DNA of 64,000 bases from an uncultured Fibrobacteraceae bacterium (GTDB lineage: Bacteria > Krumholzibacteriota > Krumholzibacteriia > LZORAL124-64-63): contig CAYYYS010000012.1 of assembly GCA_964476155.1 (NCBI GenBank), positions 6,475 through 70,474 on the forward strand. The letters run 5' to 3'. A program made the position numbers and the translations under genes. This document shows, piece after piece, positions 33,813 through 62,355 of the stretch; the first letter of the stretch is position 1, and every line of letters begins with the position of its first letter. The notes beneath the pieces were generated by a model, which searched no databases, was not told where the DNA came from, and saw nothing but the letters and a program-made list of their open reading frames with translations.

Positions 33813-35969
33813 ATGACACACGATCGCCCCACACACAGCGCGCTTGCCGCCGGCCTGTTGTTCGTATGGATGCTGATACCTTGCGTCGTGTTTGGCGTGT
33901 CCAACGGCGAGGTGCCGATCGACTCGTGGATGCTGGAGGGCAAGGGCATCCCCTGTCGCGGTCACGCCAAGGGCCTGGGACCGAACAAGGCCCCCGAAAA
34001 CCATCCGTCCCAGGACCTGATCGATGTCCTGCACTACGCGAATTATTTCATGCTGAATTTCGCCACCCAGGACATCCAGGGCGCACAGCTGATCACCTTC
34101 TCTCCTCTGCAGGGGGCCGTGACCGAGCTGGTCCTGGATTTCGTTGACGAGATGTCTTTTACGTCGGCGGCCCTGAACTCCTCCAATTACGCGCCTCTCC
34201 CTTTCGTTCACGCCAACGACCGCGTGACGATCTCACTGCCCTTTGAGGGCCAGGCCACCACCGATACGATCACGGTCATACTGACCTTCGAGGGCGCGCC
34301 GCAGCCTGACGGAATCTACGGTTTCCGGTTCGTCGAGCGCGAAGACGGTAAACTGGTGGCGGCCAACGTCAGCGAGCCCTGGAGCGCGCGTTCATGGTGG
34401 CCCTGCAAGGACGACCCGCGCGACAAGGCCACGTTCGGCACATCCCTCTATTCGCCCGCCGGCGTGACCGGTGTCTCGAACGGAGTAGAGCTTTCCTCGG
34501 GGCCCGTAAACCCGTACCTGGACGATGACGAGAAAACACGTCTCGAAGATCACCTGGCGGTTCTGCTCGGCGACAAGACCGAGTATGTGGCCGCGTACTG
34601 GCAGGAAACACATCCCATCTCCACGTATCATTTTTCGGTGGCGGCCTCCGAGTACACGCGCCTGGACGACATCTACATCGACGCCCAGGGCGACACGTTG
34701 CAGATCACCAATTACATCTATCCCGATCTGGTCCCCCAGGCCGAGATCGACTTCGCGCCGCTGTCGGACATGCTCGCCTGGTGCGAGGACACGTTCGGGG
34801 CCTACCCCTTCCCTGGCGAGAAATACGGTCATGCCCTCTTCGAGTGGGACGGCGCCATGGAGCATCCCACCGTCGCCACTTATTCGTCCCACTTTGTGAC
34901 CGGCGACAACAATTTCGACTCGATTGTCATGCACGAACTGGCCCATCAGTGGTTCGGCAATCTCGTCACCTGCGCCGACTGGTCCCATACCTGGCTGAAC
35001 GAGGGGTTCGCCACCTACGCCGAAGGTCTCTGGCGCGAGCACTCCGTGGGCGGGAGTTCGCTGAAATGGTTCATGTACCAGCGCAGCATTTTCACCTGGT
35101 GGGGGGGGGCCCTGGTCCGCGACATCCGCAATGACGACCCCTGGTACTTCTTCGCCAACATGGTCTACTACAAGGGTGCCTGGCTGCTGCACATGCTGCG
35201 TCGCGAGATCGGCGACACGGATTTTTTCGAGATTCTCAGACTCTATCCCCACGCGCGCGGCATGTCCTACGGTACCGCGACGACCGACGAATTCGTGCGC
35301 TTCTGCGAGGTATACCTGCGACGCAGCATGTCGACGTTCTTCAACCAGTGGCTCTACCGCGAAACCTATCCCGAACTGAACGTGCAATGGATGAATACCG
35401 GAACCGGGGGCGCTTCGAGCATATGGCTCGACATCAACCAGATCCAGCCCACCGACCCCTATGCCGGTGACGAACCTTTCCTTTTCAAGATCGACGTCCG
35501 CCTGGAAACCGCCGGCGGCAACGTCACCCACGTCGTCGAAGTGGACCGCCGCCACATGTTCGTGACGCTGGACGCACCGGCCAACGTGGACAACGTGGTC
35601 CTCGACCCCGACGGCTGGATGCTCTTCACTGCGGACGTGACCACGGCGGTGGATCCCCTCGCTTCCACCACCCGCGTATTGCGCCTGCGCAAGCCGGAGC
35701 CCAACCCCTTCACCGGACGCGGCATCATCGCCTGGACGACGCCCTTGTCCGGCGGCGACGAGCTGGCCGTCTACGACACGCGCGGCCGGCGCCTGCGCGA
35801 CTGGAAACTCTCCCCCGCCGAACCCGGACAGCGCAGCATCGCCTGGGACGGTCGCGACCGTAACGGTCGTCGCGTGTCGGCGGGCACCTATGTCTACACC
35901 GTCATCTCCCGCCCCACCGACGGCGGCGCGCCCCTGCGCGAAACCGGCAAGATCACACTCGCGCGCTGA
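33813..35969 (+). CDS. Secreted M1 family aminopeptidase (aminopeptidase N-like) with C-terminal T9SS/FlgD-Ig-like sorting domain
   Basis: Signal anchor MTHDRPTHSALAAGLLFVWMLIPCVVFG. GAMEH exopeptidase motif, HEXXH zincin motif VMHELAHQWFGN and the downstream LNEGFATY Glu. CTD ...PEPNPFTGRGIIAWTT...ELAVYDTRGRRLRDW...GTYVYTVISRP...GKITLAR. Confidence 0.9.
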   Translation: MTHDRPTHSALAAGLLFVWMLIPCVVFGVSNGEVPIDSWMLEGKGIPCRGHAKGLGPNKAPENHPSQDLIDVLHYANYFMLNFATQDIQGAQLITFSPLQGAVTELVLDFVDEMSFTSAALNSSNYAPLPFVHANDRVTISLPFEGQATTDTITVILTFEGAPQPDGIYGFRFVEREDGKLVAANVSEPWSARSWWPCKDDPRDKATFGTSLYSPAGVTGVSNGVELSSGPVNPYLDDDEKTRLEDHLAVLLGDKTEYVAAYWQETHPISTYHFSVAASEYTRLDDIYIDAQGDTLQITNYIYPDLVPQAEIDFAPLSDMLAWCEDTFGAYPFPGEKYGHALFEWDGAMEHPTVATYSSHFVTGDNNFDSIVMHELAHQWFGNLVTCADWSHTWLNEGFATYAEGLWREHSVGGSSLKWFMYQRSIFTWWGGALVRDIRNDDPWYFFANMVYYKGAWLLHMLRREIGDTDFFEILRLYPHARGMSYGTATTDEFVRFCEVYLRRSMSTFFNQWLYRETYPELNVQWMNTGTGGASSIWLDINQIQPTDPYAGDEPFLFKIDVRLETAGGNVTHVVEVDRRHMFVTLDAPANVDNVVLDPDGWMLFTADVTTAVDPLASTTRVLRLRKPEPNPFTGRGIIAWTTPLSGGDELAVYDTRGRRLRDWKLSPAEPGQRSIAWDGRDRNGRRVSAGTYVYTVISRPTDGGAPLRETGKITLAR

Positions 35970-37269: not shown

Positions 37270-37861
37270 CGCGTCTGACCGCCTTCACCCGCTGCCGCCA
37301 CCACCCGTTGTCGATGCTGTCGATGCGAATGTGCTTGCCCGTACCCGGCGCGTGGACGAACTGGCCCTTGCCCACATAGATGCCCACGTGGGAAATAACA
37401 TCCCGATCGATACGGAAGAAGATCAGGTCGCCCCGCAGCATGGTGCGCAGGGTCGTGGTGCGGCCGGAGCGCGACTGGTTGCGCGCGGTGCGCGGCAGAT
37501 TCACGCCCACTTCGCGATAGACGTACTGGACGAGGCCGCTGCAGTCGAAGCCCTGGGGCGTGGTGCCGCCGTAGACGTACGGGACGCCCAGGAACGACAG
37601 GGCCATGTCGCAAACCAGGTCGGACGGGGGCTGGGTGCGGTCGATGTCCTGCCACTGGATCCGTGAAGTGGGACGATCCTGAGCGGGGGGGGGGATAATG
37701 CGATCGCGGGCCGGGGGGGCCGGATCCGTCCGGGAGACGGGGGTGGACGCGGGCAGCTTGCCACGCCAATGCGGGGCGCATCCGGACAGCAAAAGCAGTG
37801 CGGACAACAGGATAACCGTTGCCGCCGCCAGGGACGTCCGTGTCCGCTTGCCAGCATCCAT
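37256..37861 (-). CDS. NlpC/P60 (C40) family cell-wall peptidase lipoprotein
   Basis: Lipobox MDAGKRTRTSLAAATVILLSALLLLSGC. C40 catalytic region ...GVPYVYGGTTPQGFDCSGLVQYVY...H.GIYVG. Confidence 0.8.
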   Translation of the reverse strand: MDAGKRTRTSLAAATVILLSALLLLSGCAPHWRGKLPASTPVSRTDPAPPARDRIIPPPAQDRPTSRIQWQDIDRTQPPSDLVCDMALSFLGVPYVYGGTTPQGFDCSGLVQYVYREVGVNLPRTARNQSRSGRTTTLRTMLRGDLIFFRIDRDVISHVGIYVGKGQFVHAPGTGKHIRIDSIDNGWWRQRVKAVRRVIAS

Positions 37862-43537: not shown

Positions 43538-43715
43538 AATAAGCTTCTTGCTATGCCATCCCTTCACAACCCCATTCAAGTGCGGATAAGACACGCCCAA
43601 ACGAATTTCTAATTCGCTTTGGGTCCGCCCATGCGCCCGAATTAATAATGAAGAAATACCACCCCCCCCGCGTCTATATGGGTGACGATGGTAATCGAGG
43701 TGATACTCTGGAGGC

Positions 43716-43902
43716 ATGATGCTCACGCAACCGCAACAAGCCCCGACCCGGATCCCGACCGAAGACGCCTTCGCGGCTCTTGTCGACCGCGATCTGGATC
43801 GCCGAGGTCCTGGATATTCCGCCCGGTACCGTCGCCTCACGCAAACACACGGCGACGCAACGTCTGCGTCGCGAGCTGGAGAGGACCGGCCATGCGTTGT
43901 GA
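43716..43902 (+). pseudogene. Degenerate ECF sigma-70 factor remnant: N-terminal fragment and region 4 only, in different frames
   Basis: Frame A is MMLTQPQQAPTRIPTEDAFAALVDRDLD... Frame C is ...LSTAIWIAEVLDIPPGTVASRKHTATQRLRRELERTGHAL* (sigma region 4.2 HTH), and its stop overlaps the anti-sigma start. About 100 aa of sigma region 2 is absent. Confidence 0.5.
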
Positions 43903-47227: not shown

Positions 47228-48190
47228 TTACCGGTACAGACTCTTCACATCGCCCCAGGCCTTTTCATCGGTCGGGATGACGATGGTCAGGTACGCAACC
47301 CCACCATCGGAGTCGAACTGGTAGGCGTTGTTGTCCGCCACCATCGGGGCACCGTAGGCCGGGTGGCTCGTGATTGTCAGAGGCGCGTCCGTCATGAGGT
47401 TGTCGAACGTCATCAGGTCCAGGCTGTAGAGCAGACCCACGTTGCCACCGAAGACGGGCAGGTAGGAATACAGACCCATCTCGACGCCGGTGGTCAGCGA
47501 ACCCAGAACCAGGGCGTCGGCGTGCACGGCGTTGCCGAGCATGATCAACGGATCCAGCTCCAGCTTGAAGGCGGCGCCGCCAACCAGCATCTCGGCGTTC
47601 GAGACGAGGATATAGGCCTGGTGGATGACACCGACACCACCGTTGGTAACCAAGGCAGGCTCGGTACCGGCCTCATTGAAGTACACACTGATCTTCGGCG
47701 TACTGTGGATGGTCAGGCACGAGGTCAGACCCTCGGCATCGTACTGGACGCCACCGCTATCGGCGACCTTGGGAGCATCATAGTTGGGATGGGCACCCAC
47801 GGTGATCGTGCCGCCCAGCACGGACGTGGGCGAGTAGAAGTTGAACGTGGCCAGGAGGGCCGTGTCCGTGGGGTCAAAGACCGGAATAAAGCTGTACAGA
47901 CCGACTTCACAGCCGCTCTCGTCGCCGAGATACAGACCCTGATCCGTCATCGGACTCCAGCTGTACATAAGGTCCGGATCGATGTCGACGGAGAACGCGG
48001 CACCACCGACCAGCATGTCGGCGTCCTTAATCATGACATAACCCGTACACATGTCGGGCAAGAGCTCGACGGCGTAGTCGAGGTTGGTGCCGGCTTCGTC
48101 GAAGTAGACACCGATGGTGGGCTGGGCGACCGACAGGCTCGCGAAGGCGAGGACCGCAACGGCCGCGAAGGCACATTTCCAATTCTTCAT
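47228..48190 (-). CDS. Secreted protein with internally duplicated about 150-aa domain and conserved C-terminal ...AWGDVKSLYR tail (paralog family A)
   Basis: Signal peptide MKNWKCAFAAVAVLAFASLSVAQP at an internal ATG (RBS AAGGGA). Repeats start IGVYFDEAGTNLDY... and ISVYFNEAGTEPAL.... The C-terminal motif is shared with 56536..57123 and 59634..60044. Confidence 0.8.
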   Translation of the reverse strand: MKNWKCAFAAVAVLAFASLSVAQPTIGVYFDEAGTNLDYAVELLPDMCTGYVMIKDADMLVGGAAFSVDIDPDLMYSWSPMTDQGLYLGDESGCEVGLYSFIPVFDPTDTALLATFNFYSPTSVLGGTITVGAHPNYDAPKVADSGGVQYDAEGLTSCLTIHSTPKISVYFNEAGTEPALVTNGGVGVIHQAYILVSNAEMLVGGAAFKLELDPLIMLGNAVHADALVLGSLTTGVEMGLYSYLPVFGGNVGLLYSLDLMTFDNLMTDAPLTITSHPAYGAPMVADNNAYQFDSDGGVAYLTIVIPTDEKAWGDVKSLYR

Positions 48191-53195: not shown

Positions 53196-53895
53196 CGACA
53201 TGGAGCAGAGACTGCGGGCCACATCCGTGGATCCCGGCGTTCGACAGGAACACTTCGACGCTTTGCGCGCCGAGCTGCAGTCTCGTATGCGCACACGTCG
53301 ATATCGACCGCTGTTTGTGGCGGCTGCTTCGATTGTCTTCATATGCCTGGTGACGTTCCAGGATCAGCCGCTGGAGAGCTTCAACTATCGGCTCGACTAC
53401 TTCGCGGGCGAGGAAAATTCAATTTATTCGTTCATGTCCCACAGGGATGCGTCAACGTCGTGGGGATTTTCCAAATCTGTCGGAGATCTCGAGGCATATG
53501 AACGAGCGCCTATGACCCCGGAAGAGATCGCCCACCGAATACACAAAACTGAAATCAGCCAGGCCATGTTCGAGGCCGGACTCCTCGAGCCGACAAGAGC
53601 ATATGGGCACACCTGGAAAGGACAAACGACGTATTCTGTAATCTTTACAGGTGAATCCGGAGGGCTCGAATTGCAATACACCTCATATATAGATGATATC
53701 ATCCACCCCGAACATACCGACTTCATGGTCAATCATTATGGCGATATCTACATGGCGGCCTTCCGGGGAGAGCTTTCGCCATACGCTTCACAGGTTATTG
53801 CCCATGATAGCCGCGAGTTCATCCTTCACGGCTGGCGTCACGAGGATCCCGTTTACGGCGAAGTCATTATCTGGACAACCCAAGATTTTAACTAA
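53182..53895 (+). CDS. Putative anti-sigma factor-like membrane protein (single TM, periplasmic domain)
   Basis: Overlaps the sigma stop by 14 nt. TM YRPLFVAAASIVFICLVTF. 170-aa periplasmic region with no recognisable domain. Confidence 0.5.
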   Translation: MRTVSDMEQRLRATSVDPGVRQEHFDALRAELQSRMRTRRYRPLFVAAASIVFICLVTFQDQPLESFNYRLDYFAGEENSIYSFMSHRDASTSWGFSKSVGDLEAYERAPMTPEEIAHRIHKTEISQAMFEAGLLEPTRAYGHTWKGQTTYSVIFTGESGGLELQYTSYIDDIIHPEHTDFMVNHYGDIYMAAFRGELSPYASQVIAHDSREFILHGWRHEDPVYGEVIIWTTQDFN

Positions 53896-55351
53896 CAAAA
53901 GTCGATTTCAGGAAGTCGAGGCTCCGCGGGTTGCGTGCCAGGAGCTCTACGTACATGCGCAGGGTTTCCGCCTGGCCGGTCCGCACCGTGGTGCAAACGG
54001 AATCCACCGCTTCCGGCTTCATTCCCCCCCGCTCCCAAGATTCGGCCAACACCGAGAAACAAGCCGAGCAGAGTCGACACGCCCAGCAATCCAAACAGTG
54101 TTCGCCGAATGATTGCTTGAAGCGACTCCAGAGGACTTCCACAGCCTCCAGGTCGAGACCTTCGCTCACGTGACCGATGATCAGCCCGTCTCCCACCCGC
54201 TCACACGGTTGATAGGCCCCATCGGCACGCACGTGCAGGCGACGTTGGCCGGGCCGGCAGCAACCGCCTGGTGAGATCGCGTCGCCCAGCGTCTCGCGGA
54301 AACGATGATAGAAGGAAACCAGTCCATCGTCGAAAAGAGCAGCCAAAATGGGGCCGGGAGTCCGACCGGCCACACGGGTATCGACATAACGCTGTCGAGC
54401 TGCGAGCAGATCGTCACGAAAACGACCCTTGTCTTCCGTCGTGATGCCGATATCGCCCGGATTGATCCCGGTGAGGTCGACGATGCTGGCGCCAACAGAC
54501 GGCGCCTCTTTGATTCCCGCCTTCCGGTAGGGCGGAAAGTCCGCAAAGTAGGTGTCGACACGCTCAACCTCTGTGGGCGGCGCCAGGGTTACCTGGAAGC
54601 GCAACTGCTCGTGGGCGCGCGATGAAACGGCCAGGAGTCGGCCTATTCCCGCTTCGACTTCGGCATGTGACGGGCCTCCGCCCCGATGAGATCTATGTCG
54701 GTCATGAATGTCCGTGGGGCCGTCAAGACTGATCTGCAGATGGACGCCCTCGGTCACGATGAAAGCGCAGACCTCTTCACTGAGCAGGGTGCCGTTCGTG
54801 TCGATTATGAAGCGGTAGTCGTCGCACGGTCCCTCTCGACGCACCAGATCGACGATCTCGCGGATCAGATCGAACTCGAGAAGAGGTTCACCGCCGTAGA
54901 ACGAGATGGACGGTGTTTCCACATCGCGGCTGCGCGTCAGAAACTCGCGCACGGCCTTGCGTGCCACACTCGGTGACATCCGTTCATCCTGGTGAGATCG
55001 AATCCAGCCCAACTCATGGCCGTGGGGACAATATCCGCACCGCAGGTTGCATTGCTCGCTCACCGAGAGCGTAAGCTGCCCGACCTGGCCGTCGTACCCA
55101 TTCACATCGTGGCAGGCCGGGCATGTGTCGAGGGCCGTTGGTCGGTGAGACAGGAAGAGATTGTGGGCCTCGCGAGCTTCGGCGATTTCACGGTGGGCCG
55201 CCTGCAGGTCTTCGGCCGAAACCCCGGCACCGGCAGGACCGCCAAGCGCGACGGCCATGGCCGAATCGACGGAGATCACATCGCCCGAGTTTACATCATA
55301 GGCATATCGATCTTCATCATGGTCGAAAACGAAGCAAAAAGCGTCTGGCAT
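53888..55351 (-). CDS. Radical SAM / SPASM-domain peptide-modifying enzyme with N-terminal RRE-like extension (putative RiPP maturase)
   Basis: CNLRCGYCPH (CxxxCxxC) about 100 aa from the N-terminus. C-terminal SPASM Cys clusters CCRPG...C...CLDCWACRLCSACFS. Located 12 nt downstream of the Cys-rich precursor ORF. ATG at 55351 (track uses TTG at 55360). Confidence 0.9.
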   Translation of the reverse strand: MPDAFCFVFDHDEDRYAYDVNSGDVISVDSAMAVALGGPAGAGVSAEDLQAAHREIAEAREAHNLFLSHRPTALDTCPACHDVNGYDGQVGQLTLSVSEQCNLRCGYCPHGHELGWIRSHQDERMSPSVARKAVREFLTRSRDVETPSISFYGGEPLLEFDLIREIVDLVRREGPCDDYRFIIDTNGTLLSEEVCAFIVTEGVHLQISLDGPTDIHDRHRSHRGGGPSHAEVEAGIGRLLAVSSRAHEQLRFQVTLAPPTEVERVDTYFADFPPYRKAGIKEAPSVGASIVDLTGINPGDIGITTEDKGRFRDDLLAARQRYVDTRVAGRTPGPILAALFDDGLVSFYHRFRETLGDAISPGGCCRPGQRRLHVRADGAYQPCERVGDGLIIGHVSEGLDLEAVEVLWSRFKQSFGEHCLDCWACRLCSACFSVLAESWERGGMKPEAVDSVCTTVRTGQAETLRMYVELLARNPRSLDFLKSTFVS

Positions 55352-55363
55352 GTCTACCAAGGT

Positions 55364-55561
55364 CTACGTTGGTACGGTGGATTCGAACATCCTGGTATCT
55401 ACTTCATTCCCGGGCGTTCGAGTCGGCGAAGCGGCGGCTTGATCCCCCGTCCTGCAGTTGCAGTTGCATGAGCAGGTGCAGCTGCATGCCATTGCGTTGG
55501 GCTGTTCTTCGGTTGCCGTAGTGGGCTGATGGCCCGGATCCACTTTTTTGTACATAGTCAT
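55364..55561 (-). CDS. Candidate RiPP precursor peptide with alternating Cys core CSCTCSCNCNC
   Basis: MTMYKKVDPGHQPTTATEEQPNAMA-CSCTCSCNCNC-RTGDQAAASPTRTPGNEVDTRMFESTVPT, 65 aa. GGGAG RBS is placed 6 nt before the second ATG (55555). Preceded by an AT-rich promoter region. Confidence 0.6.
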   Translation of the reverse strand: MTMYKKVDPGHQPTTATEEQPNAMACSCTCSCNCNCRTGDQAAASPTRTPGNEVDTRMFESTVPT

Positions 55562-55810
55562 CTCCCTTTTTGTATGGGATATACATCCGTCACTATTGAA
55601 GATACCAAATCTTCCGCGCTTTTTTATTGATTTTTTTAATATTCAATGCAAAGAAATCACTCCCCCGGCATTGTAGCGGATGGACGGAGTAGCGTTGTGG
55701 GGGGTTCTCGATCAATAATCGATTTCTACAACGGCAAGGGCGTGCAAGTTAGCTAAATATTTCCTCCCGCTACAGTCGGGGGACGCCGTATTAGTTTCGC
55801 TCTTTGGGCG

Positions 55811-55842
55811 AGGGGCGACGAGCGTCTCCCGGCGTTTTTTTT
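55811..55842 (+). terminator. Orphan plus-strand hairpin + T8 terminator-like element (no annotated plus-strand gene upstream)
   Basis: gggcgacg-ag-cgtctccc with 7 of 8 bp paired, then ggcgTTTTTTTT. Lies in the 310-bp AT-rich gap between the methyltransferase and the precursor gene. Confidence 0.3.
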
Positions 55843-55869
55843 AGGGAAGAGTCGAATCGAGCCGGATAA

Positions 55870-56529
55870 TTAGCGACGGCGGGCTGCCAGCTCCACATCG
55901 CCGTGCCGATGCTCCGGTCCATCTCCGTGTCGATGCACGGGGCCCAAGGTCTCGTCGTGGCTCAGGATCTCCCACCCACGCAGCAGATCACGGATTTCCC
56001 GACGCGCCAGATAGGTGCGGTAGTCACCGTCCGGACTGCGGAAGCTATGGCGACCAGCCGGCGTCCACGTGTCCCGGTAGGTCTCGTACGAGGGATCGTC
56101 CACGTGCCAGGCGACCAGCAGAAGGATCGCGCCAGGGGCGGTCCAGCGCTGGAAACGATACAGGAGGCCGGCGATCTCGGCGCGTGAGAGGATCTGTAGC
56201 AGACCGAAGCATAGCACCGTGTCGAAGGGCGCCGACGGCTCGTAAGCCAGGACCCCTCCCCGCCACAGTTCGAGATCGAGACCCGCCTCGCGAGCCCGGC
56301 GCTCGGCCTGGGCGATGGACGCGGCTGACGGGTCGATCCCGGTCACACGCATGCCGGCCGCGGCCAGGGGCAGCGCGTTGCGTCCCTGTCCCACACCCAG
56401 GTCCAGCACGCGACCGCCAGGCTCGAGGTCTCCGGCGAAGCGCGTCAGGAGCGGCGCGGGTTCGGAGCCGAAATAATAGGTGTTGTCGCCATAGGCTTTG
56501 TCGTAATCGTCGGTGCGTTTATCCGCCAT
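55870..56529 (-). CDS. Class I SAM-dependent methyltransferase (TehB/TPMT-like)
   Basis: ...GRVLDLGVGQGRNALPLAAAGMRVTGIDPS... motif I. 219 aa. Co-directional and immediately upstream of the precursor/rSAM pair. Confidence 0.8.
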   Translation of the reverse strand: MADKRTDDYDKAYGDNTYYFGSEPAPLLTRFAGDLEPGGRVLDLGVGQGRNALPLAAAGMRVTGIDPSAASIAQAERRAREAGLDLELWRGGVLAYEPSAPFDTVLCFGLLQILSRAEIAGLLYRFQRWTAPGAILLLVAWHVDDPSYETYRDTWTPAGRHSFRSPDGDYRTYLARREIRDLLRGWEILSHDETLGPVHRHGDGPEHRHGDVELAARRR

Positions 56530-56535
56530 GGGACG

Positions 56536-57123
56536 TCAATCGCCATAGATGGTTTTTACGTCGCCCCAGGCCCGGGGCTCGTCTTCGGCGGCCGAGTTGA
56601 TGGTGAAGGAGGGGAGGTCGTCGGCGCCACAGGGGCTACAGGGGTGCACCATACCGACATCCGAGGCGTAGCCGGGATTGTCCGGCAGGTCGAGGGAGCC
56701 TGGAACCGGTTTGATGTAGAAACGGATGGAATCTTCGTTGAAGGTCAAGACTGAGATCGAGAGCAGCGGAATCACATTGGCGCTGTTGGGCGTGAGGGGA
56801 CTCAGGGCCGTCCCGACCTGGTATTCGGGGCTCGAAGCGAAGTTGAGAGCGCTCTCGCCCAGAATCTGCCAGGTCGCCGACATGTTCTCCTCGCCCGCGA
56901 CCTCGATATAGGCTTGCCAGCCCAGCGCCTGGGATTGCGAAGGATTGACGACGCACAGATAGATCGTCTGCTGCGTGAAGGCGGCGAGGTCGATATTGCC
57001 GCCACACGTGGACTCGGATTCGTTATCCGCGCAGAAACACATGACGTCGGACTGGGCCACCGCGACGGTGGCGAAGACGAGAACGAACAGGCATGTCGAA
57101 AGCACGCCATATACACGATTCAT
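56536..57123 (-). CDS. Secreted Cys-containing domain protein with C-terminal ...AWGDVKTIYGD tail (paralog family B)
   Basis: Signal peptide MNRVYGVLSTCLFVLVFATVAVA (RBS AAGGGAA). Domain QSDVMCFCADNESESTCGGNIDL... is paralogous to the N-terminus of 57277..59595. Confidence 0.75.
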   Translation of the reverse strand: MNRVYGVLSTCLFVLVFATVAVAQSDVMCFCADNESESTCGGNIDLAAFTQQTIYLCVVNPSQSQALGWQAYIEVAGEENMSATWQILGESALNFASSPEYQVGTALSPLTPNSANVIPLLSISVLTFNEDSIRFYIKPVPGSLDLPDNPGYASDVGMVHPCSPCGADDLPSFTINSAAEDEPRAWGDVKTIYGD

Positions 57124-57276
57124 CACGGTATTCCCTTCTGCGATCTGCGAGCGGAGCCCCGGTCGGTTTCTCACGACCGGGGCGAGTCCTTGTATCAGGA
57201 TAAAAGAACCGCCTGCAGGAAACAAGGCCCAGCCGTGGGGCCGGGCCTGTTTGTGGGCTGTTTGCTGCCCTGGCTA

Positions 57277-59595
57277 CTACTTCACCAGGGTCAATTTGGC
57301 CATGGTGTCGGTCCGGACACCATCCAACAGGAGTACGGCGAAGTAGGTTCCGCCGGCGAGTTCGCGACCGGTGTCGTCCAGGCCGCGCCAGGTCTCTGTG
57401 TAAGTCCCTGCCGTTTGTGTGCCCAGATCAAATGCGCGCACGCGGCGGCCACGCAGATCGTAGATCTCGAGGCCGAGCCGACCGGGTAGGCTGCTGGTCA
57501 GCTTGATCTCGGTGCTGGGGTTGAAGGGGTTCGGGTGACTGGTGATGGCGTGGGCGACGGGTCGGTCGGGAGCCGCGGTCAACGCGTCCGGGGAGCGGAA
57601 GGTCACCAGTAAGGGTTCATCGCCTACTTCCAGTACGACCGAGGACTCGTCCTGCATGGACATCACGACCACGCGGTTTTGGTGGGGTAGGTAGATCTGG
57701 GGGTCGGTTTTGTCTGGTAGGGCCGTGCTGTCCCAGTTCAAGACGACCGGGCCGGGTTCCGGGGCTGTTAAGGTGGCGGTCCAGTCGTAGGGCTCCTCGA
57801 TGGGGGCGCGGATGTCGGTGAGGAAGGATGAGCCTACGGCGAGGTCCCATTCGGGGTGTTCGAAGCGGAGTTTGGCCGCGCTTCGGGGGACTGGGGACGC
57901 GGGGGGTTCTGGGAGGTCGTAGCGGGCGTCGAAGGATTCCCGGGCTTGGGAGTTGAATCCCAGGGAGACGCCTTCGGAGCGGCCGTCTACAGAAAAGGCC
58001 AGGCGCCAGGCGTCTGGAGAGTCGAAATCGTCTGTCTTGGGGGTTGTGCCTGGGGGGATTACGGTGGCGTAGTTGAACTTGAGCTGGATGTAACTATCGT
58101 GACAGGCCACCCAGTATCCATACCATGTGTCGAATGTCACTGCATCTACATATGACTCCGAGGCTGAATCGTAGCCGAAGGGGAAGGCCGAGACCCAGCC
58201 TGCGCTCACGGCTTCGCCCCAGGTACGTATATCGTATCCGGATCGTGTCACCATAACACCGTCAAGATCCGTCGAAATCCATAACGGATAGCTAACCATG
58301 TTCCAACCGGGGGTCAGCGGAACGTTGACCTCACTGGTATTCAAGGTTCCACCAGGGATATCCCAGGTGTACGCCTGTGTCGCACCAATCCAATAGGCCT
58401 TGAGCAGGTCGGCCGCATCGCCGAGCTCAAGGAGTCTGTATCCGTTGCCGGGATCATGATCGTAAATGAAAGTCGACCACGCCGCGTTTTGCAGAAACGC
58501 CTGGGAGATAGTCCCGGGACTTGGCGGGATCATCGGCAGGCCGGCCAAAGACCAGCCCGCCGGCAGGTCCCGGGACTGGGGCTCCGGCCCGACCATACCA
58601 GGGGGCCCCACCCACAACTCCAGAGTGCGTGGGATGCCGGGAGTCGGCATATAGTTGAAGCTGTAGCCGATCATACGGACATCCACGGTCCAATCGTCGA
58701 CGGGATCATGGAGATACAAGCCCCAGCCATCATCGAACAAGTCATCCGGCGCGAAATCGAGAGTCATTTGCTGGCTGCGATCGGTCAGGACTTCGAAGGA
58801 CCAGACCTTGAGGTTGTCCAATGGATTATAGGGCTCGCGGTAATCGGTCATGAAGCGGTCGCCCAGGGGTGATGCCCATTCGGGATGCGGGAAATAGAGG
58901 GTCACGTATTCGCTTGGCTGTATCGGCGGTTCGGGGGCATCAAAGGGGGGATCATAAATGTCGGTCGCATTGGTGATCGCGCCGGCGATATTGCCGTTGT
59001 CGTCAAGATTGTCGACATGAGCGCTTAGCTCGACGGAGAACTGCGGAAAGGACGGAGGGGGATCTTCGCCGTTGATGGTGAAGACTGGGATGTCGGGATC
59101 GCCGGAGCAGGTTACGCAAGGAATAGAGAAGCCTGCTTCCGGAAAATAGCCCGGGCTGTCAGGGTAAGACGACGAATCCGGTACTCGCCGAACATGGATA
59201 TTGATTGGGGCGGACGTGTCGATCACCGTAAGCGCTATTTGCAACAACACCATACTTCCATCTGCGTTGGGATGCATCGGGCTCGCGCCAAGTCCGACGA
59301 TATAATTGGAGCCATATCCGATATTGAGGCCTCCGCCAAGAACCTCCCAATCACCGAAGTAGGTCACCGTCGTTACGATCTCGACTTGGGCCTCCCAGGC
59401 CGAAACCTGATAAGCACTTGGATTAGTAATGAGCAGATACAGATTCTGCGTGTGGTACATGTCGACATCCACATTTCCGCCACAAGAGGAATAGCTCTCG
59501 CTATCGGTGCATACACACATCACATCCTGCTGGGCAACGGCGACACCGAAAGCCACGAGACTGAACAGGCAAATAGTGGCTACTAGATTTCGCAT
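57277..59595 (-). CDS. Large secreted protein: N-terminal family-B Cys domain, internal repeats, C-terminal T9SS/FlgD-Ig-like sorting domain
   Basis: Signal peptide MRNLVATICLFSLVAFGVAVA. N-terminal domain QQDVMCVCTDSESYSSCGGNVDV.... CTD ...HPNPFNPSTEIKLTSSLPGRLGLEIYDLRGRRVRAF...GTYFAVLLLDGVRTDTMAKLTLVK. Confidence 0.8.
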   Translation of the reverse strand: MRNLVATICLFSLVAFGVAVAQQDVMCVCTDSESYSSCGGNVDVDMYHTQNLYLLITNPSAYQVSAWEAQVEIVTTVTYFGDWEVLGGGLNIGYGSNYIVGLGASPMHPNADGSMVLLQIALTVIDTSAPINIHVRRVPDSSSYPDSPGYFPEAGFSIPCVTCSGDPDIPVFTINGEDPPPSFPQFSVELSAHVDNLDDNGNIAGAITNATDIYDPPFDAPEPPIQPSEYVTLYFPHPEWASPLGDRFMTDYREPYNPLDNLKVWSFEVLTDRSQQMTLDFAPDDLFDDGWGLYLHDPVDDWTVDVRMIGYSFNYMPTPGIPRTLELWVGPPGMVGPEPQSRDLPAGWSLAGLPMIPPSPGTISQAFLQNAAWSTFIYDHDPGNGYRLLELGDAADLLKAYWIGATQAYTWDIPGGTLNTSEVNVPLTPGWNMVSYPLWISTDLDGVMVTRSGYDIRTWGEAVSAGWVSAFPFGYDSASESYVDAVTFDTWYGYWVACHDSYIQLKFNYATVIPPGTTPKTDDFDSPDAWRLAFSVDGRSEGVSLGFNSQARESFDARYDLPEPPASPVPRSAAKLRFEHPEWDLAVGSSFLTDIRAPIEEPYDWTATLTAPEPGPVVLNWDSTALPDKTDPQIYLPHQNRVVVMSMQDESSVVLEVGDEPLLVTFRSPDALTAAPDRPVAHAITSHPNPFNPSTEIKLTSSLPGRLGLEIYDLRGRRVRAFDLGTQTAGTYTETWRGLDDTGRELAGGTYFAVLLLDGVRTDTMAKLTLVK

Positions 59596-59633
59596 TTCGA
59601 TCTCCCTCCCGGAGACTGGTCATGAATATTCGA

Positions 59634-60210
59634 TTATCTATTCGTATCAAAGAGCGCCTTTACCTCCCCCCAGACCGCATCGTGTGACGCGGTTGGATCG
59701 TCCCAGATCAAGGTCACGATGAGTTCCATATGTGCGGAATCCAGCGGCACGAAAATATCCGCCGGCAAACTGTCTCGCTTGGGCCGCCCTTCGGTCGGAG
59801 TGACGATAACCGCCAGTGGCAGATCCCAGCCCTCCAAGGCCTCGAACGACAGGTAGGCGGTTTGGCCGACCTGATCGGTGTCGATGATCAGCATCCAGTC
59901 CTCGGTCTCGTCTTCCATCTGCAGGGTCGGCCGGAATTCGTCACGCCAGAGGTTGGGAAAGGGTCCCGCGTAACCCGTCATTACAAAATCCAGGCAGAGA
60001 TGGTCTGACGGGGGGGGGCGGTGGTTGGGGCTGATCGTATCCATCGACCAACATCAGGGCGTCGTTGTATACGCCGAAGTGCTGGAGGTCGGAGTCGATG
60101 GCGCCGGTCGTCGCCTGTAGGGAGATGACGATGGATTGGGCGGTGGCGGGCGCGATCAAGCACATCGCGCTCGCGAGCAGGACCGAGACAAAAACTACGA
60201 ATCTATTCAT
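59634..60210 (-). pseudogene. Secreted family member ending in ...AVWGEVKALFDTNR, interrupted by a frameshift at a poly-C/G(9) tract (possible phase-variable gene)
   Basis: ORF 59941..60210 (signal peptide MNRFVVFVSVLLASAMCLIAPATA ... QPQPPPPP) and ORF 59634..60044 are in different frames and overlap at the G9 run 60010..60018 (coding PPP). Confidence 0.5.
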
Positions 60211-60496
60211 GTCGATAATCCGCTTATACGTTTTGGGCGATCCGCGTCTGATTATAGCAGATCTGTGGATTATATGCGTATCGATTTACCTAATAATGGG
60301 GGTGTTTGTACGGGAGGCATTTCTGTGCTTGGTTGGAGGCTTTCGGTGCGCATAAATCATACCCGCGTGCGCCTGTAACTTATAACATAGCATGATGTTA
60401 GCGCTTGCGCTGCTGGTGTTTTTCGGCTATATTGTCTCCATCGAATGCATCCGTTTCGACCTCCCGCGAAACGCTCGTTTTCTGGGAGGTTTTTCT

Positions 60497-61522
60497 ATGT
60501 CAGCCAGCGAAATCCATGCTCGTCTTCAAGCGGCTTTGAGTGAACTTCAGCGGGCGGAGAAGAACGCCGTTCTGTTGTTCGGCGAGATTCTTCGGCGCAA
60601 GTTGTATCGGGATCTTGGTTACTCATCTATTCAGGTTTATGCCGCCGAAGCGCTCGGGTTCTCACCGAGTAAGACTTCGCAGTTTGTGCGACTGGCGGGG
60701 GCGCTCGAAGAGCTGCCGCAGCTGCGTCGATCGGTGGCGGCCGGTGAGTTGGGGTGGACCAAGGCGCGGGAGGTGGCCAAGGTGGCTACGCCCGAAAGTG
60801 AAGAGAGATGGATCGCCGAGGCGGAGCGGTCGAGTAGTCGCAAGTTGGAGCAAACGGTGCGGGCAACACGCAAGCGGGCGCGCCTGGCGCCGCAAGTTGC
60901 GGAGCTGCCTGCGCTGGACCTGGGCGAGCCATCGCCAGCGCTGCCCACGGACGCTCCGCTCTCGGTGAGTACAAAACTCACGGCCGAACAGTACGCCCGC
61001 CACGAGGCTCTGTTCGAGACGATCCGCAAACGAGGCAACCGAAAAAACTCGACAGTACGGGGTATGGACCGCGCCGAGTTGTTGCTCGTCGCGCTGAACG
61101 ATCTGGCGGAGAAGCTCGCGCAAGAGCCGGAAACCAAGATCGTCTCCAGCCCGCCTTATCAAGTCGTAGTTTACACGTGTAAAAAGTGTGGCAAGTCCGA
61201 GGTGCAAACCGACCGCGGTCCAAAGCCCATATCAACTGAAGTTGTGCATTGCGACGCCGTCATCCATGAGCCTAGCCAGCCCAATCGCTCGACCATCCCG
61301 CCGAAAACCCGTCAGGCTGCCATGATCAAGGCCAACCATCGTTGCGAGACACCGGGATGCGGGCGGACACGGTTCCTGGAGGTTCATCATCGGCGTCCGC
61401 GATCGCTGGGGGGCAGCAACGAGGTGACCAACCTCCAGGTGCTATGTTCGAGTTGCCACCAGCTGGTCCATCAACGAGGACAATCGCAACCGGCACAGCA
61501 TCAATATGAGAAAACGGGGTAA
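60497..61522 (+). CDS. HNH endonuclease (DUF222-HNH type)
   Basis: RBS GGGAGG before the internal ATG. C-terminal ...CETPGCGRTRFLEVHHRRPRSLGGSNEVTNLQVLCSSCHQLVH (HNH with Zn Cys). Confidence 0.8.
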   Translation: MSASEIHARLQAALSELQRAEKNAVLLFGEILRRKLYRDLGYSSIQVYAAEALGFSPSKTSQFVRLAGALEELPQLRRSVAAGELGWTKAREVAKVATPESEERWIAEAERSSSRKLEQTVRATRKRARLAPQVAELPALDLGEPSPALPTDAPLSVSTKLTAEQYARHEALFETIRKRGNRKNSTVRGMDRAELLLVALNDLAEKLAQEPETKIVSSPPYQVVVYTCKKCGKSEVQTDRGPKPISTEVVHCDAVIHEPSQPNRSTIPPKTRQAAMIKANHRCETPGCGRTRFLEVHHRRPRSLGGSNEVTNLQVLCSSCHQLVHQRGQSQPAQHQYEKTG

Positions 61523-61587
61523 CCCGTTTCCGGAATACCCCGCCTCTCGCATGTTGATGATCGGTCCGGTGATCCAGGTCTGGCCTG

Positions 61588-62355
61588 CTAGTCACCGCTC
61601 AATAAATCCCCAAGAATCCCCTTCTTCCCCACCAGGCCGCCCACGCCGCGGTGTTCGCCCTTGTTGCGGCCTACCGCCGTGCTGATGCGGTCGACGAGGC
61701 GGCTGAATGGCAGGGTCTGCAGCCAGACCTTGCCCGGACCGGAGAGCGAAGCCAAGAAGAGGCCTTCGCCGCCGAACAGGGCGTTCTTGAAGCCGCCCAC
61801 GAACTGGATGTCGTAGTCGACCGATTCCTGGAACGCCACCAGGCAGCCCGTGTCGACGCGCAGGGTTTCTCCCGGCGCGAGTTCGCGCTCCATGACGGCG
61901 CCGCCGGCGTGGCAGAAAACCATCCCGTCGCCGGTCAGGCGCTGCAGGATGAAGCCCTCGCCGCCAAATAAACCAGCGCCGAGGCGTTTGGTGAAAGCCA
62001 CGTCTATGTCGAGACCATAGGCGCAACAGAGGAAGGCGTCCTTCTGGCAGAGCATGCGGCCGCCGAGGGCCGACAGATTCATGGGGATGATCTTGCCGGG
62101 GTACGGGGCGGCGAAGGCCACGTGGGCCTTGCCCTGGCCGGTGTGCTTGAAGGTGGTGATGAAGAAGCTCTCGCCGGTGAACACGCGTTTGAGTCCGCCG
62201 AAGATGCCGCCTTCGGCGCCGGTGTTCATCTGCACGCCCGGTTCCATGTAGAGCATGGCGCCGGCTTCGGCCTGCACCGCCTCGTCCGGGTCCAGTTCCA
62301 CGATGACCGCCTGCAGGTCGTCGCCCACCAGTTCGTAATCTATCTCGTGCGCCAT
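61588..62355 (-). CDS. TIGR00266/AIM24 (DUF124) family protein
   Basis: 255 aa. ...GAMLYMEPGVQMNTGAEGGIFGGLKRVFTGESFFITTFK... is characteristic. Confidence 0.8.
   Translation of the reverse strand: MAHEIDYELVGDDLQAVIVELDPDEAVQAEAGAMLYMEPGVQMNTGAEGGIFGGLKRVFTGESFFITTFKHTGQGKAHVAFAAPYPGKIIPMNLSALGGRMLCQKDAFLCCAYGLDIDVAFTKRLGAGLFGGEGFILQRLTGDGMVFCHAGGAVMERELAPGETLRVDTGCLVAFQESVDYDIQFVGGFKNALFGGEGLFLASLSGPGKVWLQTLPFSRLVDRISTAVGRNKGEHRGVGGLVGKKGILGDLLSGD

What the first reader, a model, noticed from the sequence alone, without database searches (positions are those of the whole stretch)
59990..60030. Poly-G(9) homopolymer splits a secreted family gene: candidate phase-variation switch
A run of nine G (60010..60018; CCCCCCCCC on the coding strand, encoding Pro-Pro-Pro) sits exactly where the two frames of the 59634..60210 gene overlap. 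A 1-nt change in tract length would restore a single about 190-aa secreted protein carrying the WGEVK tail. Tracts of eight or more G/C are classic slipped-strand phase-variation sites, but also classic sequencing-error sites.
Basis: seen in the sequence. Interest (0 to 1): 0.6.

Follow-up and report, generated by a model that had tools for sequence, protein, structure and literature searches.

The report
Fixed frameshift in a poly-C run
A run of nine C's that encodes a conserved proline motif has gained one extra base and broken a small secreted-protein gene in every available assembly of this marine bacterium, so it looks like a recent slippage knockout of a dispensable gene and not a working on/off switch.

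Summary
G9 lies at 60010..60018 (C9 on the coding minus strand), inside the overlap of a signal-peptide ORF (60210..59941) and a 136-aa ORF (60044..59634). C8 or C11, but not C10, gives one 191/192-aa protein. That protein aligns end to end with an intact ortholog and with about 20 secreted proteins of 176-224 aa. The tract encodes their invariant D-x-P-x-P-P-x-x-P motif.

The break is not an assembly error. All nine loci read, from at least seven samples and three assembly sources, show C9. Two equally long runs in the same window are in frame.

Phase variation is not supported. No in-frame allele exists in a collection of about 15 billion proteins. The homopolymer is lineage-specific: orthologs and other family members encode the same prolines with C-runs of 5 or fewer. 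Long G runs are no commoner than in shuffled sequence. The closest sister lineage has lost the whole gene block.

dN/dS of 0.12 downstream of the tract, with no further lesions, indicates a recent event. The best reading is a young, population-fixed slippage frameshift that could in principle revert. Read-level heterogeneity could not be tested.

The parts
60010..60018 (-). C9 homopolymer (G9 on the + strand). It covers Pro codons 65-67 of the conserved D-x-P-x-P-P-x-x-P motif and carries one extra C compared with the in-frame state.
59941..60210 (-). ORF1 (89 aa): start codon, Sec-type signal peptide (about residues 1-25, judged by eye), the first two beta-strands of the domain, then 22 out-of-frame codons and a TGA at 59941..59943.
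59634..60044 (-). ORF2 (136 aa open frame). From the tract onward it encodes residues 68-191 of the ancestral protein. Gene callers annotate only its last 115 aa (P0001).
59658..59672 (-). C-terminal WGEVK motif (family consensus WGxVKxL[YF]R), predicted as a terminal helix.
57277..59595 (-). Downstream partner gene, 772 aa, intact, with a FlgD_ig/T9SS-like C-terminal domain. Its N-terminal domain matches the 195-aa paralog, and it has internal segments similar to the target family.
56536..57123 (-). 195-aa secreted paralog with a WGDVK tail. It belongs to the same conserved cassette.
57275..61588 (.). Block holding the HNH/DUF222 gene, the target gene and the 772-aa gene. It is absent from the closest sister lineage and replaced there by 88 nt.

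Best explanation
The gene is an accessory member of an undescribed family of roughly 190-aa Sec-exported single-domain beta-sandwich proteins, in a probable Krumholzibacteriota genome. The family's invariant proline motif (D-x-P-[EQ]-P-P-x-P-P) is normally encoded with mixed Pro codons. In the window's lineage the Pro codon that is CCT in the nearest intact ortholog reads CCC, which together with its neighbours would give a C8 run (direction of change inferred). Replication slippage then added one C to give C9 (inferred). Translation therefore leaves the frame after Pro67 and stops 22 codons later. The product would be a signal peptide plus a 64-residue fragment that lacks most of the domain, which is a null allele. 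This state is the consensus in every available assembly of a nearly clonal population (shown). The event is recent: the downstream frame is still open and shows purifying selection over the divergence from the ortholog (shown). The gene is dispensable in this clade, because the sister lineage has lost it (shown). A C9 run can slip back, so reversion is physically possible. Nothing indicates that the tract is maintained or used as a switch.
For: Searches give the tract, the two ORFs and the C8/C11 repair. Searches show the intact 197-aa ortholog P0002 in the same synteny. It reads CCA CCG CCT CCC CC(G/T), which is 8 nt, interrupted and in frame, and the only indel in the coding alignment falls in the run. 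Searches show 20 homologs of 176-224 aa that are colinear with the repaired protein, with invariant residues on both sides of the tract (G46, A51, D56, D59, P61, P63, P64, P67, W88, W105). One search gives an AlphaFold model of the repaired protein with mean pLDDT 89.8 and pTM 0.78, and 10-residue-block pLDDT of 92-98 across residues 31-170, on both sides of the tract; 19 contigs carry the broken product, every locus read has C9, all 16 contigs with the exact 772-aa neighbour and all 7 with the exact HNH neighbour fall into place groups whose shown members carry the 115-aa fragment; no in-frame allele among about 15 billion proteins, and the 90% cluster holds only P0001 and P0002; the contigs differ by 0-5 SNPs over 4-6 kb, so the population is near-clonal; dN/dS is 0.116 downstream of the tract at dS 0.42, with no extra stops or indels; five other family genes encode PPPPP with C-runs of 5 or fewer; a G9 in an M1 peptidase gene and a G10 in an NlpC/P60 gene are in frame in the same assembly; sister lineage L024 (UbiD 97% aa) lacks window 57275..61588; a second lineage-specific lesion, a 362-nt deletion in an ECF sigma gene.
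Against: A low dN/dS and an otherwise perfect ORF are also what an expressed or switchable gene would show. The gene class (secreted), the tract length (9) and its position in the first third of the ORF fit textbook contingency loci (PMC6321876). One contig (L012, JGI 3300008954) ends 6 nt from the tract, which could reflect trouble in the reads at that point. Only consensus sequences were examined, so minority tract lengths are invisible. Retrieval through the broken product P0001 cannot by itself find in-frame alleles. The absence of in-frame alleles rests.
Confidence: 0.65

Rival explanations
1. This is a true slipped-strand phase-variation (contingency) locus caught in the OFF phase. The C9 tract would switch at high frequency between C8 or C11 (ON, secreted protein made) and C9 or C10 (OFF), giving population heterogeneity in a variable secreted-protein island.
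For: The tract length exceeds the cut-off of 7 G/C or more used to call phase-variable genes (PMC6321876). It lies in the 5' third of a gene for an exported protein. The downstream ORF is intact with dN/dS 0.12. The gene sits in a region that differs sharply between close relatives. An intergenic C8 at 43662..43669 differs by one base (C7) in the sister lineage, so such runs do slip in this clade. One contig breaks 6 nt from the tract.
Against: All nine loci read, from at least seven samples, show C9, and no ON allele exists in any assembly. The repeat is not conserved: orthologs and four other family genes use interrupted Pro codons. Variability between homologs is the usual in-silico indicator of phase variation (PMC6321876), and it is absent here. 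At 63% GC, G9 runs occur at the chance rate. Two equal or longer runs sit stably in frame in a peptidase gene and an NlpC/P60 gene.
Confidence: 0.18
2. The frameshift is bypassed during expression. Ribosomes stalled on the five-proline stretch would slip +1 on CCC-CCC-CCC-G, or RNA polymerase would drop one C, so that some full-length protein is still made from the C9 allele.
For: The required shift is +1, and CCC-C(G) is a documented +1-prone site for tRNAPro that is normally held in check by m1G37 and EF-P (PMC4519876, PMC7577736). Re-pairing anywhere within the C9 run is perfect, as the sequence shows. The downstream frame is intact.
Against: Orthologs are in frame, so the shift is not a conserved programmed feature. 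There is no Shine-Dalgarno-like stimulator upstream, and the next 0-frame codon is GUC, not a stop codon. Whether GUC is slow to decode was not tested. Background +1 slippage in wild-type cells is held low by m1G37 and EF-P (PMC4519876, PMC7577736). The transcriptional-slippage study read here concerns A/T runs (PMC6260861).
Confidence: 0.07
3. Sequencing or assembly artefact: the true tract is C8 and the gene is intact.
For: Homopolymers are classic indel-error sites. One contig ends next to the tract.
Against: The same C9 appears in independent assemblies from JGI, ENA and Logan covering at least seven samples. The same window carries G9 and G10 runs that are in frame within Pfam-matched domains or intact genes. 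Eight contigs reproduce the C10-containing NlpC/P60 product.
Confidence: 0.04

Closest known systems
Homopolymer (slipped-strand) frameshift pseudogenes, classed as indel mutations among prokaryotic reading-frame transitions (PMC3711429, listed, abstract only seen)
   Same: A single-base expansion of a mononucleotide run breaks a gene that is intact in relatives. The state is fixed in the population. The gene is dispensable, since the sister lineage has lost it.
   Different: There are no secondary lesions yet and dN/dS is still low, so the event is very young. The run encodes the most conserved motif of the protein.
Poly-G/C contingency loci of Campylobacter, Neisseria and Helicobacter (PMC6321876, PMC5953494, PMC2823697)
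   Same: A G/C run of 9 within the 5' part of an exported-protein gene, where a change in length toggles the frame.
   Different: There is no length variation among assemblies and no conservation of the repeat among orthologs. Repeats are not enriched in the genome. The genome is GC-rich, so such runs arise by chance. The organism is an uncultivated bacterium known only from metagenomes, whose sample labels suggest marine water.
+1 frameshift-prone CCC-C sites decoded by tRNAPro (PMC4519876, PMC7577736, PMC8324841)
   Same: The broken gene needs exactly a +1 shift on a CCC-C context, within a poly-proline stall-prone stretch.
   Different: The site is not conserved, no stimulatory elements were seen, and there is no evidence of expression.

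Membership tests
SSR-mediated phase-variable (contingency) gene | Hypermutable simple repeat (7 or more G/C) inside the ORF or promoter | tested here: met
   C9 at 60010..60018 lies within the ORF. The cut-off is from PMC6321876.
SSR-mediated phase-variable (contingency) gene | A change in repeat number toggles between full-length and truncated product | tested here: met
   C8 and C11 give 191 and 192 aa. C7, C9 and C10 are truncated.
SSR-mediated phase-variable (contingency) gene | Repeat length differs among isolates or assemblies of the same lineage | tested here: not met
   All loci read show C9. No in-frame allele is in the collection. All neighbour-anchored contigs fall into place groups whose shown members carry the broken product.
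SSR-mediated phase-variable (contingency) gene | Mixed tract lengths within a population (read level) | not testable with these tools
   There was no read access. The only hint is one contig ending 6 nt from the tract.
SSR-mediated phase-variable (contingency) gene | The repeat is conserved as a repeat in orthologs or homology-group members | tested here: not met
   The ortholog reads CCG CCT CCC CC(G/T). Other family genes have C-runs of 5 or fewer at the same motif.
SSR-mediated phase-variable (contingency) gene | Long repeats over-represented compared with composition | tested here: not met
   4 matches against 1.94 +/- 1.67 in shuffles, with 16 of 100 shuffles reaching 4 or more.
Frameshift pseudogene | Reading frame disrupted compared with intact orthologs | tested here: met
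Frameshift pseudogene | The lesion is fixed in the population | tested here: met
   Met at consensus level only, in at least seven samples.
Frameshift pseudogene | Relaxed selection or secondary lesions | tested here: not met
   dN/dS is 0.116 downstream and there are no further stops or indels. This is compatible only with a recent event.
Frameshift pseudogene | The gene is dispensable in the clade | tested here: met
   Sister lineage L024 lacks the HNH, target and 772-aa block.
Programmed +1 ribosomal frameshift (prfB-like) | The frameshift is conserved among orthologs | tested here: not met
   All homologs are single-frame.
Programmed +1 ribosomal frameshift (prfB-like) | Slippery P-site codon allowing +1 re-pairing | tested here: met
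   The site is CCC CCC CCC G. CCC-C slipperiness is from PMC4519876.
Programmed +1 ribosomal frameshift (prfB-like) | Stimulators: an upstream SD-like element and a slow or stop codon in the A site | tested here: not met
   The upstream sequence is GATCAGCCCCAACCACCG with no SD-like element, and the next codon is GUC, not a stop. Whether GUC is slow to decode was not tested.
New secreted-protein family (PEPPxPP ... WGxVKxLYR, no Pfam or NCBIfam model) | Colinear homology over the full length, including both sides of the tract | tested here: met
   (no model matched).

The most novel reading that the evidence does not exclude
The C9 run is a functioning contingency switch, or a poly-proline/EF-P-sensitive +1 recoding site. 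It would control one component of a hypervariable secreted-protein cassette in an uncultivated marine Krumholzibacteriota population, where all sampled populations happen to be dominated by the OFF length. That would extend SSR phase variation to a free-living environmental lineage outside the host-associated pathogens in which it has been characterised.
Probability: 0.15. Interest if true: 0.55.

Novelty: new member of a known kind. Interest (0 to 1): 0.2.

Why it matters
Its main use is as a calibration case. A G/C run of 9 that splits a secreted-protein gene looks like a phase-variation switch. In a 63% GC genome, however, such runs arise at chance frequency, and this one is a lineage-specific accident within a conserved proline motif. 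The practical consequence is for annotation: the locus should be marked as a frameshifted gene. Current annotations give a 115-aa fragment plus a probably spurious antisense 85-aa ORF. If reads later show mixed tract lengths, it would be a rare candidate for phase variation in a free-living marine bacterium. The surrounding cassette is of more lasting interest than the tract. It comprises an undescribed secreted family with a shared C-terminal WGxVKxLYR tail, a variable island, and a nearby Cys-rich peptide with a radical SAM maturase.

Tried and rejected
1. Unbiased scans for tract-length variants gave nothing. The search for related loci with the repaired protein in metagenome contigs found no relative. 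The pattern GATCAGCCCCAACCACCG-N{5,14}-GTCAGACCATCTCTGCC had 0 matches in metagenome contigs and in genome contigs. Those collections do not hold this lineage, so the tests are uninformative and not negative.

2. The search for related loci with the 772-aa neighbour in genome contigs gave only 28-29% relatives in other phyla. It said nothing about tract state.

3. Pfam and NCBIfam gave no family for the target or its paralogs.

5. I considered whether the radical SAM/SPASM gene matures the secreted family. This is unlikely, because a Cys-rich 65-aa ORF directly upstream of it is the obvious substrate.

6. HMMER hits to giant multi-repeat proteins (P0014, P0023, P0028) were set aside. P0023 and P0028 are HYR and SdrD_B repeat proteins, and the matches cover only part of the query (residues 57-105 and 75-130 of ORF2). 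P0014 was not checked.

7. P0022, a 111-aa family member that looked like a second break at the same motif, is simply cut by a contig end.

8. The sigma-70 promoter scan found nothing upstream. A TATAAT about 45 nt upstream of the ATG is visible by eye (TACAAT in the ortholog). This was not pursued.

9. A literature search for the sample accessions found nothing.

Full report
**Observation**

Window 60010..60018 is a run of nine G, which reads as C9 on the minus strand. Two minus-strand ORFs overlap at 59941..60044, and the run lies inside that overlap.
- ORF1 runs 60210..59941 (89 aa). It starts MNRFVVFVSVLLASAMCLIAPATAQS, which looks like a Sec signal peptide by eye.
- ORF2 runs 60044..59634 (136 aa) and ends ...AVWGEVKALFDTNR.

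Editing the run in silico shows that C8 (191 aa) or C11 (192 aa) fuses the two ORFs. C7, C9 and C10 do not. The run is not remarkable in itself. The window is 62.9% GC, and GGGGGGGGG matches 4 times against 1.94 +/- 1.67 in dinucleotide-preserving shuffles, with 16 of 100 shuffles reaching 4.

**What the gene is**

Pfam and NCBIfam have no model for it.
- A word-indexed search of 5.8 billion protein clusters found only P0001. This is the 115-aa fragment that gene callers annotate from an internal ATG of ORF2.
- The 90% cluster of P0001 has one other member, P0002 (197 aa). P0002 is an intact ortholog with 85% identity to the repaired protein.
- P0002 lies in the same gene order: 5'-nucleotidase, AIM24, HNH/DUF222, target, a 772-aa FlgD_ig protein, and a 196-aa protein.
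- A full HMMER scan of 1.84 billion cluster representatives with ORF2 found 26 hits. About 20 are proteins of 176-224 aa in which ORF2 aligns to residues of roughly 60-190.

The repaired protein is colinear with these proteins. Invariant columns lie on both sides of the tract: G46, A51, D56, D59, P61, P63, P64, P67, W88 and W105. There is also a near-invariant C-terminal WGxVKxL[YF]R. The tract encodes Pro65-Pro67 of the family's most conserved motif, D-x-P-[EQ]-P-P-x-P-P.

AlphaFold2 on this alignment gives mean pLDDT 89.8 and pTM 0.78. The model has beta-strands between residues 27 and 169, and 10-residue-block pLDDT of 92-98 across residues 31-170 on both sides of the tract. I read this as one domain, but inter-strand contacts were not inspected. 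On that reading neither half-ORF is a domain on its own. Foldseek found no significant PDB match.

The gene belongs to a cassette that recurs in distant relatives. The cassette has a roughly 200-aa CxC-domain protein with the same tail, the target family, and a roughly 720-785-aa FlgD_ig protein. The N-terminus of that large protein matches the 200-aa protein, and it contains segments similar to the target family. Named UbiD homologs at 67-72% identity are all Candidatus Krumholzibacteriia.

**Where the break lies**

The window was aligned with two ortholog loci (L008 and L009; the blastn match is about 83% nucleotide identity). The only coding-region indel falls inside the run. The window reads CCA CCG CCC CCC CCC G. 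The orthologs read CCA CCG CCT CCC CC(G/T). The in-frame state is therefore 8 nt long and interrupted by a T. The window lineage differs by a synonymous T/C change, which would make a C8 run, plus one extra C. The order and direction of these two steps are inferred.

**Is it an artefact?**

- Nineteen contigs carry P0001. The seven distinct places returned come from JGI 3300013118, 3300007510 and 3300007512, ENA ERZ23499048, ERZ23498983 and ERZ23498677, and Logan SRR8062351. All read C9.
- P0001 starts downstream of the tract, so this retrieval is blind only to in-frame lengths.
- Three further checks address in-frame alleles. The exact 191-aa and 192-aa repaired proteins are absent from the roughly 15-billion-sequence collection. 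No other cluster matched the repaired query. All 16 contigs with the exact 772-aa neighbour and all 7 with the exact HNH neighbour group into places whose shown members carry the 115-aa fragment.
- In the same window a G9 (35101..35109) lies in frame inside the Peptidase_M1 domain of a 730-aa gene. A G10 (37685..37694) lies in frame, encoding Pro-Pro-Pro, in an NlpC/P60 lipoprotein gene whose product recurs on 8 contigs.

A systematic homopolymer error is therefore unlikely. One contig (L012, JGI 3300008954) does end 6 nt from the tract. I treat this as a weak hint only.

**Is it a phase-variation switch?**

Points in favour:
- The run is longer than the cut-off of 7 G/C used for calling phase-variable genes (PMC6321876).
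- It lies in the first third of an exported-protein gene.
- The downstream frame is intact, with dN/dS 0.116 at dS 0.42 against the ortholog.
- The neighbourhood is a variable island.
- An intergenic C8 at 43662..43669 is C7 in the sister lineage, so such runs do slip in this clade.

Points against:
- No length variation was seen in any assembly.
- The population is nearly clonal, with 0-5 SNPs per 4-6 kb. The many contigs are therefore replicate readings of one allele.
- The homopolymer is not a conserved feature. The ortholog interrupts it, and three other family genes that encode five consecutive prolines use CCG-rich codons with C-runs of 4 or fewer.
- Runs of this length occur at the chance rate in this GC-rich genome and sit stably in frame in other genes.
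- The closest sister lineage (L024, UbiD 97% aa) lacks window 57275..61588 altogether, that is HNH, target and the 772-aa gene. A more distant lineage keeps an intact but fast-evolving ortholog (P0015, 52% identity over the ORF2 region).
- The window lineage carries a second private lesion, a 362-nt out-of-frame deletion in an ECF sigma gene.

**Mechanism proposed**

A slipped-strand +1C insertion occurred in a neutrally created poly-C run. Translation then terminates 22 codons past the tract, giving a null allele fixed in a near-clonal population. This makes the gene a young pseudogene of a dispensable accessory gene (confidence about 0.65).
- Shown: the lesion, its exact site, its reproducibility, the ancestral architecture, the lineage specificity of the run, and the dispensability of the gene.
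- Inferred: the order of the mutations, loss of function, and the absence of switching.

Rivals:
- True phase variation caught in the OFF state (about 0.18).
- Expression rescue by +1 ribosomal slippage on CCC-C within a poly-proline stall, or by transcriptional slippage (about 0.07). The shift required is indeed +1, and CCC-C(G) is a documented slippery site (PMC4519876, PMC7577736). The site is not conserved and lacks stimulators. The transcriptional-slippage study read here concerns A/T runs (PMC6260861).
- Artefact (about 0.04).

**Novelty and verdict**

This is a new instance of a well-known kind, a homopolymer frameshift allele. It is of low interest in itself. Read pile-ups compared with the two in-frame control runs would settle the remaining question.

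Noticed in passing
window 55364..55561 (-) and 53888..55360 (-): A 65-aa Cys-rich ORF (…AMACSCTCSCNCNCRTGD…) lies directly upstream of a radical SAM/SPASM gene. The best NCBIfam match for that gene is the Cys-rich peptide maturase CcpM (223 bits, below the cut-off). The small ORF is conserved in relatives (62-63 aa in L025 and L027). This is probably an unannotated RiPP precursor with its maturase, next to a methyltransferase at 55870..56529.
   Followed up: partly
window 59658..59672, 56554..56568 and 47243..47257 (all -): Three secreted proteins with no evident sequence similarity outside the tail end with the same tail, [AS]WG[DE]VKx[LI][YF]. They are the target, a 195-aa CxC-domain protein and a 320-aa two-repeat protein. 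The tail is conserved across the target family and in the 208-aa cassette partner of a distant lineage. It is absent from the FlgD_ig/T9SS-type proteins of the window. It may be an undescribed C-terminal sorting or recognition tag.
   Followed up: partly
window 55485..61588 compared with L024 4791..8544: This is a hypervariable island. The sister lineage is 95-99% identical elsewhere, but only 80% over the 195-aa and methyltransferase genes and 68% over the radical SAM gene. It lacks the HNH, target and 772-aa block entirely. Another lineage (L027) has the 772-aa gene duplicated (785 and 774 aa).
   Followed up: partly
window about 43715..43830 compared with L024 18387..18932: The ECF sigma-factor gene upstream of the zf-HC2 anti-sigma gene carries a 362-nt internal deletion bounded by GATC microhomology. 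It also has a 15-nt tandem duplication at the sigma/anti-sigma junction, compared with the sister lineage. This is a second gene-breaking lesion private to the window lineage.
   Followed up: partly
window 43662..43669: An intergenic C8 lies about 50 nt upstream of the ECF sigma gene. It is C7 in the sister lineage, within flanks that differ at only one base. This is a length polymorphism in a promoter-proximal run.
   Followed up: no
window 37685..37694 and 35101..35109: A G10 encodes Pro-Pro-Pro in the linker of an NlpC/P60 lipoprotein gene, and a G9 lies inside the Peptidase_M1 domain of a FlgD_ig-tailed peptidase gene. Both are in frame. They are useful internal controls for homopolymer accuracy, and both are also exported proteins.
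   Followed up: yes
window 60098..60355 (+): Public gene calls place an 85-aa ORF antisense to the signal-peptide half of the broken gene. It is probably a spurious call caused by the frameshift.
   Followed up: no
L006 (JGI 3300007512) compared with window 60500..61800: One contig carries a target gene 100% identical to the window but a much more divergent HNH/DUF222 gene next to it (about 95% identity over the blastn-aligned 2.5 kb, with every mismatch in the HNH region). This suggests a multicopy or mobile HNH element, or a chimeric assembly at this junction.
   Followed up: no
L012 (JGI 3300008954 Ga0115650_1009696), position 1 = window 60003: A 14.9-kb contig ends 6 nt downstream of the C9 run. 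This could reflect a coverage or quality drop, or heterogeneity at the homopolymer in that sample.
   Followed up: partly
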